Below, one piece after another: positions 10,699 through 39,859 of a stretch of 64,000 nucleotides of DNA. Source of the DNA: the human T2T-CHM13v2.0 reference genome, Homo sapiens; assembly GCF_009914755.1 (NCBI RefSeq), contig NC_060933.1, one strand, 5' to 3'. The number at the start of each line of letters is the position of its first letter. The stretch's first letter is position 1. Made by a program: the position numbers and the translations under genes. The notes under the pieces are model-generated. The model was not told where the DNA came from, did not search any database, and was given only the letters and a program-made list of their open reading frames with translations.

Positions 10699-12277
10699 AT
10701 GCACTTTTTGAACTTTGATCTACTCATACTTTGGGGACTATTTGTTATTGCCGCATAACCTACTCTTCATAGACATACTCTGAACAAAGTTCAACAAATC
10801 TTTTTTATAACTTTTAGGTTCAGGGGTACTGGTGCAGGTTTGTTACATAAGTAAACTCATGTCACGGGTATGTTGTACAGATTATTTTGTCACACAAGTA
10901 TTAAGCCTAGAACCCAGTAGTTATTTTTTTCTGATCCTTTCCCTCTTCCCACCCTCCACCCTCAAGTGGGATCCAGTGTGTGTTGCTCCCCTCTTTGTGT
11001 CCATGAGTCCTCATTATTTAACTCCCACTTATATGTGAGAACATGCAGTATTTGGTTTTCTGCTCCTGTGTTAGTTTGTTGAGGACAATGGCCTCTAGCT
11101 TCATCTATGTTCCTGCAAAAGACACGATCTCATTCTTTCATATGGCTGCATGGTATTCCATGGTGTATACGCACCACATTTTCTTTATCCAATCTGTCAT
11201 TAATGGGCATTGAGGTTGGTTCCATGTCTTTGCTATTTTGAATAGTGCTGCAACGAACATGAACGTGTATGTGTCCTTATGGTAGAATGATTTATATTCC
11301 TCTGGGCATATACTCAGTAATAGGATTGCCAGGTTGAATGATAGTTCTATTTTTAGCTCTTTGAGGAATCATCTCACTGCTTTCCACAATGGTTGAACTA
11401 ATTTATACTTTCACCAACAGTGTATAAGGGTTCCCTTTTCTCTGTAACCTTGCCAGCATCTGTTATTTTTTGATTTTTTAATAATGGTCTTTCTGACTGG
11501 TGTGAGATGGTATCTCATTGTGGTTTTGATTTTCATTTCTCAAATCATCAGTAATACTGAACATTTTCATATGCTTGTTGGCTGTATGTATGTCTTCTTT
11601 TGAAAAGTGTCTGTTCATGTTCTTTGTCCACTTTTTAATGGGGTTGTCTTTTTCTTGTAAATTTAAGTTTTTTATAGATGCTAGGTATTAGACCTTTGTC
11701 AGATGCACAGTTTGCAAATATTTTCTACCATTTTGTAGGTTGTTTACTCTGCTAATAGTTTCTTCTGCTTTGCAGAAGCTCTTAAGTTTAATTAGATCCC
11801 ATTTATCAGTTTTTGCTTTTGTTGTGATTGCTTTTGGCATCTTCGTCATGAAATCTTTACCTGCTTTTATGTCCAGAATGGTATTGCCTAGATTGTTTTC
11901 CAGGGTTTCTATAGTTTAAACCTTTTATTCATGTTGAGTTGATTTTTGTATATGGTATAAGGAAAGGTTCCAGTTTTAATCTCCTGCATATTGCTAGCCA
12001 GTTATCTCACACCATTTATTGAATAGGGAGTCATTTCCCCATTGCTTGTTTTTGTCGGTTTTGCCAAAAATAAGGTGGTTGTAGGTGTGCAACCTTATTT
12101 CCAGACTCTATTCTGTTGCATTGGTCTATTTGTCTGTTTTTGTACCAGTATCATGCTGTTTTGATTTCTGTAGCCCTGTAGTATAGTTTGAGGTTGGGTA
12201 ATATGATTCCTCCAGATTTTTTCTTTTTGCTTAGGATCCTCTTGACTATTTGGGCTCTTTTTCTGGTTCCAAGTGAA

Positions 12278-12567
12278 TTTTATTTTATTTATTTTTATTT
12301 TAATTAGTATTTTTTGAGATGGAGTCTCCCTCTGTTGCCCAGGCTGGAGTGCAGTGGCGTGATGTCAGCTCATCACAACCTCCACCTCCTGGGTTCAAGC
12401 AATTCTCCTGCTTCAGCCTCCTGAGTAGCTGGGATTATAGCCATCACACCCAGCTAATTTGTTTATTTTTAGTACAGACAGGGCTTTGCCATGTTGGCCA
12501 GGCTGACCTGAAGAGATAAACTTGCATCCCAAAGTGCTGGGATTACAGGCATGAGCCACCACGCCCA
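12278..12567 (-). mobile_element. Alu inserted in L1
   Basis: Reverse Alu with small internal deletions. Confidence 0.9.
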
Positions 12568-12739
12568 TTTTAAAATAGTTTTTTCTAGTTCTATGAAGAA
12601 TTTCATTGATAATTTGATAGGAATAACACTGAATCTGTAATGCTTGGGCAGTATGACCATTTTAATGATATTGATTCTACCTGTCCGTGAGCGTGGCATG
12701 TTTTTTTCTTTCTTCATTTGCTTGTGTCATCTCTGATTT

Positions 12740-13040
12740 CTTTCCTTTTTTTTTTTTTTTTTTTGAGACCAGGTCACTCTGTGGCCCAGACTGGAGTGCA
12801 GTGGCACAATCTCAGCTCACTGCAACCTCTGCCTCCTGGGTTCAAGAAATTCTCTTGCCTCAGCCTCCTGAGCAGCTGGGATTACAGGGGCCCGCCACTA
12901 TGCCCAGGTAATTTTTGTATTTTCAGTAGAGTTCAGGTTTCACCATGTTGGTCAGGCTGGTCTCAAACTCCTAACCTCGTAATCCACCGACCTTGGCCTC
13001 CCAAAGTGCTGGGATTACAGGCGTGAGCCACTGCACCGGG
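12740..13040 (-). mobile_element. Alu inserted in L1
   Basis: Reverse Alu, TSD tcatctctgatttctt. Confidence 0.95.
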
Positions 13041-13160
13041 CTATCATCTCTGATTTCTTTGAGCAGTGTTTTGTAATTCTCATTGTAGAGATCTCTCACC
13101 TCTATGGTTAGCTGTATTCCTAGGTATTTTATCTTTTTGTGGCAATTGTGAATGAGATTG

Positions 13161-13400
13161 GCAACAGAAAGAGACTCCATCACACACCTACACACAAAAA
13201 GAATCTCAGGAAGGTGGAAAGTATAAAGGTGGTTAGCAGACGGTAGGAAGAAAAAGGGTGGGATGGGGAATGAAGAGAAGTGGATAATTGGGTCCCAAAA
13301 TACAGAAAGATGGAATAAGTGAGTTCTAGTGTTTGACAGTACAGTATGAAAATTTTAGTTCACAAGAATTTCTTGCATTTTTCCAGATGCTTTGGTAAGA
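13161..13400 (+). mobile_element. Alu terminal ~20 nt followed by L1MA 3'UTR (continuation of 37530-37980)
   Basis: gcaacagaaagagactccatc, CA/A-rich tail, caaaaagaatct, then ggtggttagcaga...gaagagaagtggataattggg...gagttctagtgtttgacagtacagt typical of L1MA 3' ends. Confidence 0.82.
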
Positions 13401-13468
13401 AGCTTCCTAACTTTCTCATTATGCTGGTTTTTCAGCTATTCTCTTTCTGCTCTCGAAATCATGCTGGA

Positions 13469-37009: not shown

Positions 37010-37346
37010 ATTTTTTCTTTTTCTTTTCTTTTCTTTTTTTTTTTTTTTTGAGGCAGAGTTTCACTCTTGTTGCCCAGGCTGGAGTGCAATGGCACGGTCT
37101 CGGCTCACTGCAACCTCTGCCTCCCATATTCAAGTGATTCTCCTGTCTCAGCCTTCCAAGTAGCTGGGATTACAGGTATGCGCTACCATGCCTGGCTTTT
37201 TTTTTTTTTTTTTTTTTGGTATTTTTAGCACAGACAGTGGTACTCCGTATTGGTCAGGCTGGTCTTGAACTCCCGACCTCAGGTGATCCGCCCGCTTCCG
37301 CCTCCCAATGTTCTGGGATTACAGGCGTGAGCGACCGCGCCCAGCC
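37010..37346 (-). mobile_element. Alu (AluS)
   Basis: Reverse full Alu, TSD ttagcattttc. Confidence 0.95.
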
Positions 37347-37529
37347 ACCACTTAGCATTTTCATTTTACATTTGTTGAAATTATAGATTTATACACACTT
37401 TGATGCTGCTTTGTTATACACTTGCATATACATAAGACGGGAAATAGAAAAGAATAAAATGGGCACAGTATCCCTGAAGTTTCACATTCTGAGACATGTT
37501 AAAAATATTTGCTTTTTAGAAATTTGTTT

Positions 37530-37980
37530 CAAATGAGAAACTGTGGTATACACACACAATGAAGTATTATTCAGCCTAAAAAGGAATAAACAAAATCCTC
37601 TCCACTGCAGACAAAATGGATGAGATTGCAGGTCTGTATTATTAAGTGAAATAAGCCAGGCACAGAATGACAAATATTTCATATCCTCACTTCCATGTAG
37701 GAACAAAAAAGAAAATCTTGGCCAGGTGTGGTGGCTCAGGCCTTGTAATCCCCGCACTGTGGGAGGCCGAGTCGCACGGATCACTTGAGGCCAGGAGTTC
37801 GAGACCCACCTGGCCAACATGGTGAAACCCTGTCTCTACTGAAAACACAAACAATTAGCCGGGCGTGGTGACGCATGCCTGTAGTCTCAGCTACTCGGAG
37901 GGCTGAGGCCCAAGAAGCGCTTGAACTCGGGAGGCAGATGTTGCAGCGAGCCCGGATTGTGCCTGTATACTCCAACCTAG
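37530..37980 (+). mobile_element. L1MA 3' fragment (37530-37719) followed by an Alu body lacking its terminal ~20 nt and tail (37720-37980)
   Basis: aaactgtggtatacacacacaatgaagtattattcagcc...taagtgaaataagccaggcacaga...caaaaaagaaaatctt, then Alu up to actccaacctag. Confidence 0.9.
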
Positions 37981-37986
37981 TGAGCC

Positions 37987-39388
37987 GAGATTGGGTTCGT
38001 GATTTGGCTCTCGGCCTGGCTGTTGCTGGTTTTTAGAAATGCCACTGATTTTTGCACATTGATTTTGTATCCTGCAACTTTGCTGGAGTTGTTTATCAGC
38101 TGAAGGAACTTTTGGGCTGAGACTCCGAGGTTTTCTGTATGTAGAATCATGTCATCTGCAAACAGGGATAGTTTGACTTCCTCTCTTCATATTTGGACAC
38201 CTTTTATTTCTTTCTCTTGCCTGATTGCTCTGGCCAGGACTTCCAATACTATGTTGAATAGGAGTGGTGAGAGAGGGCATCCCTGTCTTCTACTGGTTTT
38301 TAAAGGGAATGCTTCCAGCTTTTGCCCATTCCCATTCAGTATGATATTGGTTGATGTTATAGATGACTCTCATTATTTTGAGGTGCATTCCTTCAATACC
38401 TAGTTTATTGAGAACTTTTAGCATGAAGGGATGCTGAATTTTATCGAAGGCCTTTTCTGAGTCTATTGACATAATCATGTGGTTTTTGTCTTTAGCTCTG
38501 TTTATGTGGTGAATTATGTTTGCTGATTTGCATGTGTTGAACCAACCTTCAACCAAGTAGGATGAAGCCTACTTGTTTGTGGTGGGTTAACTTTTTGATG
38601 TGCTACTGGATTCAGTTAGCAAGTATTTTGTTGAAGATTATTGCATCAATGTTTGTCAAGGATATTGGCCTGAAGTTTTTGCTTTTTATTGTGCCTCTGC
38701 CAGGTTTTGGTATCAAGATGATGCTGGCCTCACAGAATGAGTTAGGGAGGAGTCCTTCCTCCTCAATGTTTTGTAATAGTTTCTATAGGAATGGTACCAG
38801 CTCTTCTTTGTACATCTGGTAGAATTTGGATGTGAATCCATCTGGTCCTGGGCTTTCTTACTGATTGAATTTCAGAGCTCATTATTGTTCTATTCAGGGA
38901 ATCAATTTCTTCATGGTTCAGTCTTGGGAGGGTTTATATGTCCAGGAACATACCCATCTCTTCTAGGTTTTCAAGTTCTTGTACATAGAGGTGTTTGTAG
39001 TAGTTTTGGATAGTTAGTTTTCTGTCTGTGGGGTCAGTGGTAACATCCCCTTTGTCATTTCTAATTGTGTTTATTTGGATCTTCTTTCTTCTTTGTTAGT
39101 CTAGCTAGTGGTCTATGTATCTTATTAATTTTTTCAAAAATCTAACTCCTGAATTTATTGGTTTTTTGAATTTTTTTGTGTGTGTCTCAATTTCCTTCAG
39201 TTCAGCTCTGATTTTTGTTATTTCTTGTCCGCTGCTAGCCTTGGAGTTGGTTTGCTCTTGCTTCTGTAATTCTTTCAGTTGTGATATTAGGTTGTTAATT
39301 TGAGATCCTGCTAACTTTTTGATGTGGATGTTTAGTGCTATTACTCTCCCTTTTAACACTGCCTTAGCTGTGTCCCAGAGTTTCTTGT
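37987..39388 (-). mobile_element. LINE-1 (older L1PA) ORF2 fragment; right half of the split element, 5'-truncated
   Basis: gagattgggttcgtgatttggctctc... continues the L1 left at 13161. Minus-strand ORFs translate to ORF2p ([41 protein letters not shown]). Confidence 0.93.
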
Positions 39389-39859
39389 AAGTCAGCAAAT
39401 CTCTTAATGATTGATTTTCATTGGTGTGTTAGTTATTTACTAAAAACTTTATGCAATATATACATGATTGTGTTGATCATTATGCCTTATTTCTGTGCAT
39501 TAAAAATCCTTCTATACTCACCCTTTGGGATATTTTATAGCAGTTGATCTTTTAAAATCTTATGAGCTCATGGATTTTCATGGGATTATTATTCTCTTTG
39601 TGTTGCTCAAATGGTTTGAACTTGGTGGCGGAGCCCCTTCAAGGAGCATCTTTGCTCCAGAATTATGTAGGATATATTTCAAACTATTCTCACTCTTCCA
39701 ATAAAAAGATGTGTAGCCTCAACTTGATGTTTTCTGCCTGTGGAAATGCCTATAGTCTTTTCACAGAGCTACACTTTTCATTTAGTGGAAACAACGATCT
39801 GATTGTTTTTCTTGAGCACAAGTAATAGCTGAAATCACTTTTTAGTAATTTTAGAGAGA

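What the first reader, a model, noticed from the sequence alone, without database searches (positions are those of the whole stretch)
10787..39402. One L1 split in register by a 24.8-kb insertion, with an 8-bp target duplication
Seen: the antisense L1 ends ...gtggcaattgtgaatGAGATTGG (13154-13161) and resumes GAGATTGGgttcgtgatttggctctc... (37987-37994). Joining the halves restores the contiguous L1 ORF2 antisense sequence with no apparent loss. The reassembled L1 is bracketed by its own degenerate TSD, aagttcaacaaatct (10787-10801) and aagtcagcaaatct (39389-39402). Inference: the OR7E block entered at a staggered break as one clean event, younger than the host L1. It has no poly(A), LTRs or terminal inverted repeats, so it is neither a retrotransposition product nor a classical DNA transposon.
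Basis: partly seen in the sequence, partly recalled or inferred. Interest (0 to 1): 0.75.

Follow-up and report, generated by a model that had tools for sequence, protein, structure and literature searches.

The report
Inside-out OR7E duplicon splitting an L1
An old L1 element on human chromosome 9 is split by exactly one repeat unit of the known OR7E "Xiao" segmental duplication, and the unit's two ends are neighbours in the other copies, which suggests the unit arrived as a DNA circle.

Summary
GAGATTGG lies at 13154-13161 and 37987-37994. On 5 of 7 intact genomic L1 copies the two L1 halves abut with exactly 8 bases of overlap; the other 2 alignments were cut short. The L1 was split in the reverse-transcriptase part of ORF2.

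The 24,825-bp insert is not a new kind of element. It is a copy of the published "Xiao" OR7E core duplicon: a 10-kb OR7E core plus a satellite-ERV-satellite block. Li et al. 2009 list loci 9q-92a and 9q-92b and report 4-9 bp target duplications.

What I did not find in the texts I could read is the arrangement. The insert is exactly one period of the tandem unit, and it is circularly permuted. Its right and left ends are directly contiguous inside one Alu in 7 of 7 fetched paralogs, and at least 44 genomic copies have that Alu intact.

The left junction has 2-3 nt of microhomology.

The 2p13 Xiao block shows the same signature over two periods. Its published "TSD", CCATCA, is part of the element itself, and its break lies about 19 bp from the window's.

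Best reading (0.6): a unit-length circular intermediate opened in the Alu tail and was end-joined into a staggered break. This is a new member of a known kind. No outgroup empty site could be tested here.

The parts
10787..10801 (.). left copy of the host L1's own degenerate target-site duplication
   Evidence: 23 of 20,000 random pairs reach its score
10802..13161 (-). 3' part of the old 5'-truncated L1, starting with a short T run (the poly(A) in antisense); interrupted by two Alu insertions at about 12290-12566 and 12738-13041
   Evidence: Homology to intact L1s was shown from 11056 onward; 10802-11056 was read only, and its L1 3'-end identity is recalled
13154..13161 (.). GAGATTGG, left copy of the 8-bp target duplication; its last 2-3 bases (TGG) also match the donor Alu (CCTGGG)
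13162..20100 (+). right part of the Xiao core; it begins with the 3' tail of the split Alu (CAACAGAAAGAGACTCCATCACACACC..)
19002..19955 (+). OR7E31P olfactory receptor pseudogene (frameshifted 7tm_4 fragments)
   Evidence: hub annotation
20123..25192 (.). satellite block with 63/76/78-bp periods (called SATR in the literature)
26642..30795 (+). internal part of a gammaretrovirus-like ERV (Gag_p30, RVP, RVT_1, RNase H, rve) without LTRs at the block ends; called HERV-E/ERV1 in the literature
30836..34295 (.). second satellite block (75/76/63-bp periods)
34296..37978 (+). left part of the Xiao core; it ends with the 5' body of the same split Alu (about 37700-37978, last bases ..TATACTCCAACCT)
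35115..36154 (+). OR7E116P olfactory receptor pseudogene
   Evidence: hub annotation
37979..37986 (.). 8-nt filler AGTGAGCC, absent from the donor at this place; the same 8-mer lies about 37 nt upstream in the same Alu in 6 of 7 paralogs
37987..37994 (.). GAGATTGG, right copy of the target duplication
37987..39389 (-). 5' part of the L1 (ORF2 RT region with the FADD motif), 5'-truncated at 39389
39389..39402 (.). right copy of the L1's own degenerate TSD

Best explanation
The block is one copy of the ape-specific Xiao OR7E core duplicon: a 10.6-kb OR7E core plus a 14-kb satellite-ERV-satellite block. It was inserted into an older, dead, antisense L1. It entered as exactly one repeat period. 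In other copies a single Alu is intact; here the insert starts with that Alu's tail and ends with that Alu's body. The simplest route has three steps. First, a unit-length circle forms by recombination between neighbouring tandem units, or between the two satellite-ERV blocks that flank a core. Second, the circle breaks once in the Alu tail. Third, the linear molecule is joined into a staggered chromosomal break by end joining. The joining left 2-3 nt of microhomology (TGG) on the left, an 8-nt probably templated filler on the right, and 8 target bases present on both sides. Shown: the identity of the block, the L1 colinearity, the 8-base duplication, the one-period permutation and the junction sequences. 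Inferred: the circle, how it formed, the staggered break and the repair pathway.
For: (1) In 7 of 7 fetched paralogs (L002-L008) the sequence matching the insert's right end (..37978) runs straight into the sequence matching its left end (13160..). They read ..TATACTCCAACCTGGGCAACAGAAAGAGACTCC... (2) A 43-nt pattern across that point has 39 genomic matches at 3 or fewer mismatches and 0 for the reversed control. The window is not among them. Five more copies are intact with more mismatches (L040, L041, L043, L044, L048). (3) Against the 3q21 tandem array the insert is colinear from one such Alu to the next. The array period is 21,149 bp and the insert is 24,825 bp. The whole difference lies in two satellite tracts (23388-25753 and 32796-33807), and no novel internal junction appears. 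(4) At most 1-3 donor bases are missing between the two ends. If the two ends were placed independently on a 21-kb unit, that has a chance of about 3 in 10,000 per locus (my arithmetic). (5) A second locus, 2p13, shows the same signature. The block starts at flank|CCATCACACAC.. and ends at ..GAGACTGCCATCA|flank. The span is 49,111 bp, two periods of 22,879 and 26,232 bp, with one intact Alu junction and exactly two ERV markers inside. Its break is about 19 bp from the window's, which suggests the break was set on the donor side rather than by the target. (6) There are no terminal repeats. (7) Circle-mediated segmental duplications with this order flip, microhomologies and short indels are documented (Chicote 2020, PMC7450558, Results read; Damert 2022, PMC9132208, passages read).
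Against: No circle was observed; the inference is from topology only. No outgroup empty site could be examined here. Three other copies examined over their whole length are not integer periods: 9q 'b' covers a period minus 1.6 kb, 13q-67 about 0.6 period, and 3p-8 about 1.1 period with internal rearrangements. Circles therefore cannot explain every copy without extra deletions. At 2p13 the two periods are only 88.6% identical in the core-left region, so that block is not a rolling-circle copy of one monomer. CCATCA occurs 4 times per period, so a microhomology-guided return along a linear array could give the same phase there with a chance of roughly 1 in 4 to 1 in 10. The right junction of the window is not a simple crossover.
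Confidence: 0.6

Rival explanations
1. Replicative template switching without a circle (MMBIR/FoSTeS or synthesis-dependent repair). A broken end in the L1 invaded a linear tandem Xiao array at a microhomology, copied along it, and switched back to chromosome 9.
For: There is microhomology at the left junction, and the 8-nt filler copies a motif 37 nt upstream, which is typical of serial template switches. Tandem arrays exist at 3q21 and 2p13. At 2p13 the 6-bp CCATCA shared by element and target could guide both the switch in and the switch out.
Against: Nothing in this model makes copying stop within 0-3 bases of where it began. TGG occurs 469 times per period, and the return junction does not use it. 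The model also does not predict that two independent targets (GAGATTGG and CCATCA) enter the 21-kb unit within about 19 bp of each other.
Confidence: 0.2
2. Two double-strand breaks at the same fragile Alu-tail site in neighbouring tandem units released a linear fragment one period long, which was then captured at a break in the L1.
For: Three loci have breakpoints within about 55 bp of each other in this Alu: the window, 2p13 (+19 bp), and an internal junction at 2q-159 (33 nt upstream, Alu joined to satellite; L045).
Against: The hot spot is not a single nucleotide. Two independent cuts should therefore usually leave ends a few to tens of bases apart or overlapping. Here 0-3 bases are missing in the window, and the ends are exactly adjacent at 2p13.
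Confidence: 0.1
3. Xiao is a giant composite transposon or LTR-retrotransposon-like element mobilised by transposition machinery, as hypothesised by Ji and Zhao. The 8 bp would then be a true transposase- or integrase-made TSD.
For: TSD-like duplications occur at most Xiao loci (Li 2009, main text). The satellite-ERV-satellite blocks flank cores as direct repeats (Li 2009). 8 bp is a length made by some transposases (recalled).
Against: A transposon has fixed ends. Here the ends lie in the middle of the core and the 'terminal' block is in the middle of the insert. Ends differ between loci. There are no terminal inverted repeats. TSD length varies from 4 to 9 bp (Li 2009). The 2p13 'TSD' is element sequence.
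Confidence: 0.03
4. Assembly artefact, or a chance 8-mer match.
For: The region is duplicated and rich in satellites.
Against: L1 colinearity with exactly 8 bases of overlap holds in 5 of 5 scorable references. RefSeq places two OR7E pseudogenes in the same order (hub annotation). Li 2009 lists two chromosome-9 Xiao loci whose junctions were amplified by PCR.
Confidence: 0.02

Closest known systems
Xiao core duplicon / 7E olfactory-receptor segmental duplications (Ji & Zhao 2008; Li et al. 2009; Mohajeri et al. 2016; Newman & Trask 2003)
   Same: It has the same sequence family: an OR7E core plus satellite-ERV-satellite, in dozens of ape-specific copies at 90-97% identity. Target duplications of 4-9 bp are reported. 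Two chromosome-9 loci are listed (Li 2009 Table 1).
   Different: The published canonical picture is block-core-block. Here a single block sits in the middle and the core is split at both ends, giving exactly one period. The word 'circular' occurs 0 times in Li 2009 and in Mohajeri 2016. Ji & Zhao 2008 and Newman & Trask 2003 are not held, so I cannot say whether they noted this.
Circular-DNA-mediated segmental duplications (Chicote et al. 2020; Damert 2022; cattle colour-sidedness, Durkin 2012, cited in Damert)
   Same: The block order is flipped, so the ends of the derivative are contiguous in the other copies. The junctions show only microhomology and short insertions. The location is dispersed, not tandem.
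   Different: No circle-closing junction is visible, because the circle would be one unit of a repeat and so closed by homologous recombination. Chicote's text has no hit for OR7E, olfactory, chr9 or Xiao. None of the distances in their Table 1 matches the 0.55 Mb between the two chr9 copies. Their supplementary tables were not seen.
eccDNA from tandem repeats and one-LTR circles
   Same: Recombination between direct repeats gives a circle one unit long. The references to Cohen and Segal were seen only in the reference list of PMC8617514; the rest is recalled.
   Different: Here the circle would be 21-25 kb and would have reintegrated in the germline.
hAT or P-type DNA transposons (8-bp TSD; recalled)
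   Same: The target duplication is 8 bp.
   Different: There are no terminal inverted repeats, the ends vary between loci, and the only integrase-like domain belongs to the internal ERV.

Membership tests
Xiao / OR7E core duplicon | About 10-kb core carrying OR7E pseudogenes | tested here: met
   7tm_4 hits at 19002-19794 and 35201-36154. Core parts 34296-37978 plus 13162-20100 total 10.6 kb and are colinear with paralogs.
Xiao / OR7E core duplicon | Satellite-HERV-E-satellite (SES) block | tested here: met
   Satellites at 20123-25192 and 30836-34295. Gag_p30, RVP, RVT_1, RNase H and rve at 26642-30795. The names SATR and HERV-E come from Li 2009 and Mohajeri 2016, not from a call.
Xiao / OR7E core duplicon | Canonical architecture SES-core-SES | tested here: not met
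   There is one SES, in the middle, and the core is split at both ends. It is a permuted form of the same unit.
Xiao / OR7E core duplicon | Many dispersed copies at the published loci | tested here: met
   At least 40 matches on chromosomes 2, 3, 4, 7, 8, 9, 10, 11, 12, 13, 14 and 21. Chromosome 9 has only two loci, matching 9q-92a/b of Li 2009; the coordinate match is my inference.
Circle-mediated segmental duplication (Chicote 2020) | Ends of the derivative are contiguous in the other copy or copies (order flip) | tested here: met
   7 of 7 fetched paralogs; at least 44 intact junctions genome-wide.
Circle-mediated segmental duplication (Chicote 2020) | A circle-closing junction inside the derivative | tested here: not met
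   The insert is colinear with one full period of the 3q21 array and has no novel junction. This is expected if closure was by homologous recombination between repeats.
Circle-mediated segmental duplication (Chicote 2020) | Only microhomology or short indels at the integration junctions | tested here: met
   TGG microhomology on the left, an 8-nt filler on the right, and 1-3 donor bases lost.
Circle-mediated segmental duplication (Chicote 2020) | Empty acceptor site in an outgroup | not testable with these tools
   No primate genomes are held. Li 2009 Table 1 gives 'N' for monkeys and lemur at both 9q loci.
LINE-1 (host element) | ORF2 reverse-transcriptase homology and colinearity of the two halves | tested here: met
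   ORF2p residues 692-754, E 3e-20. An 8-base overlap on 5 of 5 scorable intact L1s out of 7 fetched.
Classical DNA transposon | Terminal inverted repeats and fixed ends | tested here: not met
   Best terminal match is 13 nt at E 0.11. Ends differ between loci.
LTR retrotransposon / retroviral insertion | LTRs at both ends of the inserted unit | tested here: not met
   The ends are two parts of one Alu. The ERV part is internal and is bounded by satellites.

The most novel reading that the evidence does not exclude
The Xiao core duplicon, one of the main drivers of interspersed segmental duplication and 8p23.1 instability in apes, spreads as circles one or two units long. These circles open at a fragile spot in the tail of one particular Alu (next to a CA-rich tract) and are joined into chromosomal breaks. 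Part of what was published as target-site duplication, such as CCATCA at 2p13, would then be microhomology between element and target rather than the footprint of a transposase.
Probability: 0.4. Interest if true: 0.7.

Novelty: new member of a known kind. Interest (0 to 1): 0.5.

Why it matters
How core duplicons move to new chromosomal sites is a long-standing open question. For Xiao/DA the only explicit proposal in the texts I read is a giant composite retrotransposon. An inside-out, exactly one-period copy is incompatible with fixed transposon ends. It points to a circular or repeat-phase-preserving intermediate. It also turns the question into a countable test: the phase of both ends at every Xiao/DA block in complete ape genomes, and unit-length circles in germline eccDNA. 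The apparent break hot spot in one Alu tail connects to the known excess of Alus at duplication boundaries.

Tried and rejected
(1) The nearest paralog as a circularised donor. This copy lies at chr9:102.906-102.928 Mb, in inverted orientation, at 2.8-4.9% distance. I rejected it because the window holds 1.6 kb (21156-22801) that this copy lacks but the 3q21 array has.

(2) Rolling-circle copying of a monomer for the 2p13 block. I rejected it because its two periods are only 88.6% identical in the core-left region.

(3) The filler as a longer copy of the donor's own Alu. Only 8 nt match; the next bases differ (CCCGGATTG in the donor against CCGAGATTG at the junction). The 16-mer AGTGAGCCGAGATTGG does resemble generic Alu sequence: 7 other window sites match within 1-2 mismatches. 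A reading in which the right GAGATTG comes from an Alu rather than from the L1 therefore cannot be fully excluded. The 8/8 identity with the left copy makes a target duplication the simpler reading.

(4) A TSD at the ends of the nearest chr9 paralog: no clear one was seen.

(5) Terminal repeats of the insert: none.

(6) Things that could not be done. Ji & Zhao 2008 and Newman & Trask 2003 are not held. As a result the 13q-40 end, the 2q-159 block and most of the 2p13 interior were mapped only by search coordinates or not at all.

(7) L1 subfamily assignment was not attempted, because no consensus library is held. The copy is 77-90% identical to other genomic L1s.

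
Full report
**Observation.** The window reads ..gtgaatGAGATTGG|CAACAGAAAG.. at 13154-13161 and ..CCAACCTAGTGAGCC|GAGATTGGgttcgtgatttgg.. at 37987-37994. The 8-mer occurs 3 times on the + strand of the 64-kb window.

I searched the window's own genome with the right L1 half and took seven intact L1 copies with flanks. I then aligned each half to them separately. In 5 of 7 (L033, L034, L035, L038, L039) the left half ends and the right half begins with exactly 8 subject bases in common, and these copies read one 8-mer there (for example ..GTGAATGGGATTGTGTTCCTGATTTGG..). 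The other two alignments broke off near the junction and could not be scored.

The right half translates to ..[23 protein letters not shown] and matches human ORF2p residues 692-754 (E 3e-20). The left half goes on [10 protein letters not shown]. The L1 was therefore cut about 60 residues after the FADD motif of the reverse transcriptase, in register.

The similarity of the two L1 TSD copies is reached by 23 of 20,000 random pairs. The only correction is that 37979-37986 (AGTGAGCC) is filler.

**What the insert is.** The insert is 24,825 bp. It contains:
- frameshifted olfactory-receptor fragments at 19.0-19.8 kb and 35.2-36.15 kb;
- satellite arrays of 63-78-bp period at 20.1-25.2 kb and 30.8-34.3 kb;
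- between the satellite arrays, a gammaretrovirus-like gag-protease-RT-RNase H-integrase stretch on the + strand.

Its left end has at least 40 paralogs in the genome at 89-97% identity.

This is the "Xiao" element of Ji and Zhao. It has a 10-kb OR7E core from 19p flanked by SATR-HERV-E-SATR blocks, with 45 copies at 30 loci. It is absent from monkeys, amplified 25-14 Myr ago, and has TSDs of 4-9 bp (Li et al. 2009, PMC2700803, main text read in full). Mohajeri et al. 2016 (PMC5088589, passages read) call it an 18.5-kb core duplicon at 43 locations.

Li's Table 1 lists "9q-92a" and "9q-92b": present in human, chimp and bonobo, and negative in monkeys and lemur. My searches find only two chromosome-9 loci, the window and chr9:102.906-102.928 Mb. 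I take these to be 9q-92a/b; this is an inference from coordinates.

Pairwise distances between the window's copy and seven paralogs over about 3.4 kb are 3.7-6.0%. The pattern is star-like, and the second chr9 copy is nearest. With a recalled neutral rate near 1e-9 per site per year this fits the published 25-14 Myr. An OR7E block with a TSD at this site is therefore a known kind of thing.

**The new point: a one-period, inside-out copy.** In all 7 fetched paralogs the sequence matching the insert's right end (up to 37978) runs directly into the sequence matching its left end (from 13160). The join is inside one ordinary-looking Alu..TATACTCCAACCTGGGCAACAGAAAGAGACTCC...

A 43-nt pattern across this point has 39 genomic matches and none for the reversed control. 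Five further copies are intact with more mismatches.

Against the 3q21 tandem array the insert is colinear from one such Alu to the next. The array period is 21,149 bp. The 3.7 kb of extra length in the window lies entirely in two satellite tracts, and there is no novel internal junction.

The insert is thus exactly one period of the repeat, cut at a single point, with 1-3 donor bases (GGG) unaccounted for. The satellite-ERV block, drawn in the literature as the element's terminal repeat, sits here in the middle.

**Junctions.**
- Left: the L1's ..GAGATTGG meets CAACAG. The donor reads CCTGGGCAACAG, so TGG is shared.
- Right: the donor's ..CCAACCT is followed by AGTGAGCC and then the L1's GAGATTGGGTTCG. 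The same 8-mer lies about 37 nt upstream in the same Alu in 6 of 7 paralogs.

This looks like a short templated insertion of the kind left by alternative end joining or serial template switching; that is an inference. There are no terminal inverted or direct repeats.

**A second locus.** One paralog hit, chr2:71019929, lacked the upstream half.
- Its left junction reads flank..GTGCCCCT|CCATCACACAC.. (L042).
- The right end of the same block reads ..GGGCAACAGAAAGAGACTGCCATCA|GAAGAAC..flank (L047).
- One intact Alu junction and exactly two ERV markers lie between them.
- The three CCATCA sites are 22,879 and 26,232 bp apart.

Li et al. 2009 (legend of Fig. 3) report CCATCA as the TSD of this "chr2-71Mb Xiao", with an empty site sequenced from macaque. 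CCATCA is part of the element's own Alu tail (GAGACTCCATCACACACC). The block is therefore two whole periods starting and ending at the same phase. The "TSD" can be explained as one target copy plus one element copy, that is, as microhomology.

The 2p13 break lies about 19 bp from the window's break. A third breakpoint in the same Alu, 33 nt upstream and joined to satellite, is present at 2q-159 (L045).

**Mechanism.** A single cut in a circle explains ends that are neighbours to the base. Recombination between tandem units, or between the two flanking satellite-ERV blocks, would give a circle of exactly this content with no visible closing junction. A donor-side fragile spot explains why two unrelated targets received units opened within 19 bp of each other. 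Circle-mediated segmental duplications with this order flip and such junctions are established (Chicote 2020, Results read; Damert 2022, passages). Duplicated sequences are over-represented in sperm eccDNA (title and significance statement of PMC8617514, seen in the listing; Damert 2022 states this of SDs).

**Evidence against, or limiting.**
- Three other copies mapped over their length are not whole periods.
- The two 2p13 periods are only 88.6% identical. That excludes a rolling-circle monomer and leaves either a heterodimer circle or copying along a heterogeneous array.
- CCATCA occurs 4 times per period, so 2p13 alone is weak evidence.
- For the window, TGG occurs 469 times per period and the return junction does not use it, so a microhomology-guided return is a poor explanation there.
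- I could not examine any outgroup.

I put 0.6 on a circular intermediate, 0.2 on circle-free template switching along an array, 0.1 on two cuts at the same fragile site, and little on a transposon or an artefact.

**Novelty.** The texts I could search or read do not connect Xiao/OR7E with circles:
- "OR7E" plus "extrachromosomal circular": 0 papers.
- "OR7E" plus "segmental duplication" plus "circular": 3 papers, judged unrelated from titles and abstracts only.
- "circular" occurs 0 times in Li 2009 and in Mohajeri 2016.
- Chicote 2020 has 0 hits for OR7E, olfactory, chr9 or Xiao.

Ji & Zhao 2008, Newman & Trask 2003 and all supplements were not available and may bear on this.

Noticed in passing
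L013 8779-9305 (chr9:102,928,779-102,929,305): A 32-bp unit (GTCTTTCATCTGGTCTGGATGAAAGACCAGAT, itself an inverted repeat) is repeated 16.5 times at 100% identity. It lies about 500 bp beyond the end of the second chr9 Xiao copy.
   Followed up: no
L045 (chr2:159,339,301-159,339,900): At 2q-159 a core-left copy ends inside the same Alu, 33 nt before the usual junction (..GCAATGAGC). After 13 nt it continues into satellite that matches window 21961-22246 at 96.5%. The locus has three ERV markers. This is an internal deletion, a duplication junction, or a circle-closing junction.
   Followed up: partly
chr14:45,966,783 (+) and 45,976,899 (-): Two intact Xiao Alu junctions face each other 10 kb apart, which is closer than two full core-right parts would allow. 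This suggests a palindromic, truncated pair.
   Followed up: no
L049 (chr8:12,967,138-12,967,437) and L046 (chr2:71,062,001-71,069,000): Divergent core-left copies at only 87-89% identity to the main Xiao group. In the chr8 copy the Alu keeps an ordinary A-rich tail followed by a long (GAAA)n/(GA)n tract instead of the usual core-right sequence. This is possibly an older lineage of the unit.
   Followed up: partly
chr13:40,656,977-40,657,933 (-): The 13q-40 copy's core-left homology stops at window-equivalent 37821, about 157 nt before the usual junction and again within the same Alu. The sequence could not be fetched.
   Followed up: no
window 2-1166: A repeat at the window's start recurs at 89-95% identity on both sides of the 13q-67 Xiao copy, in opposite orientations, and near the 3p-8 copy. 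I did not identify it.
   Followed up: no
window 26642-30795: The ERV inside the unit still has recognisable Gag_p30, protease, RT, RNase H and integrase-core fragments in several frames on the + strand. It is cut off on both sides by satellite arrays, and no LTR was seen at the block ends.
   Followed up: partly
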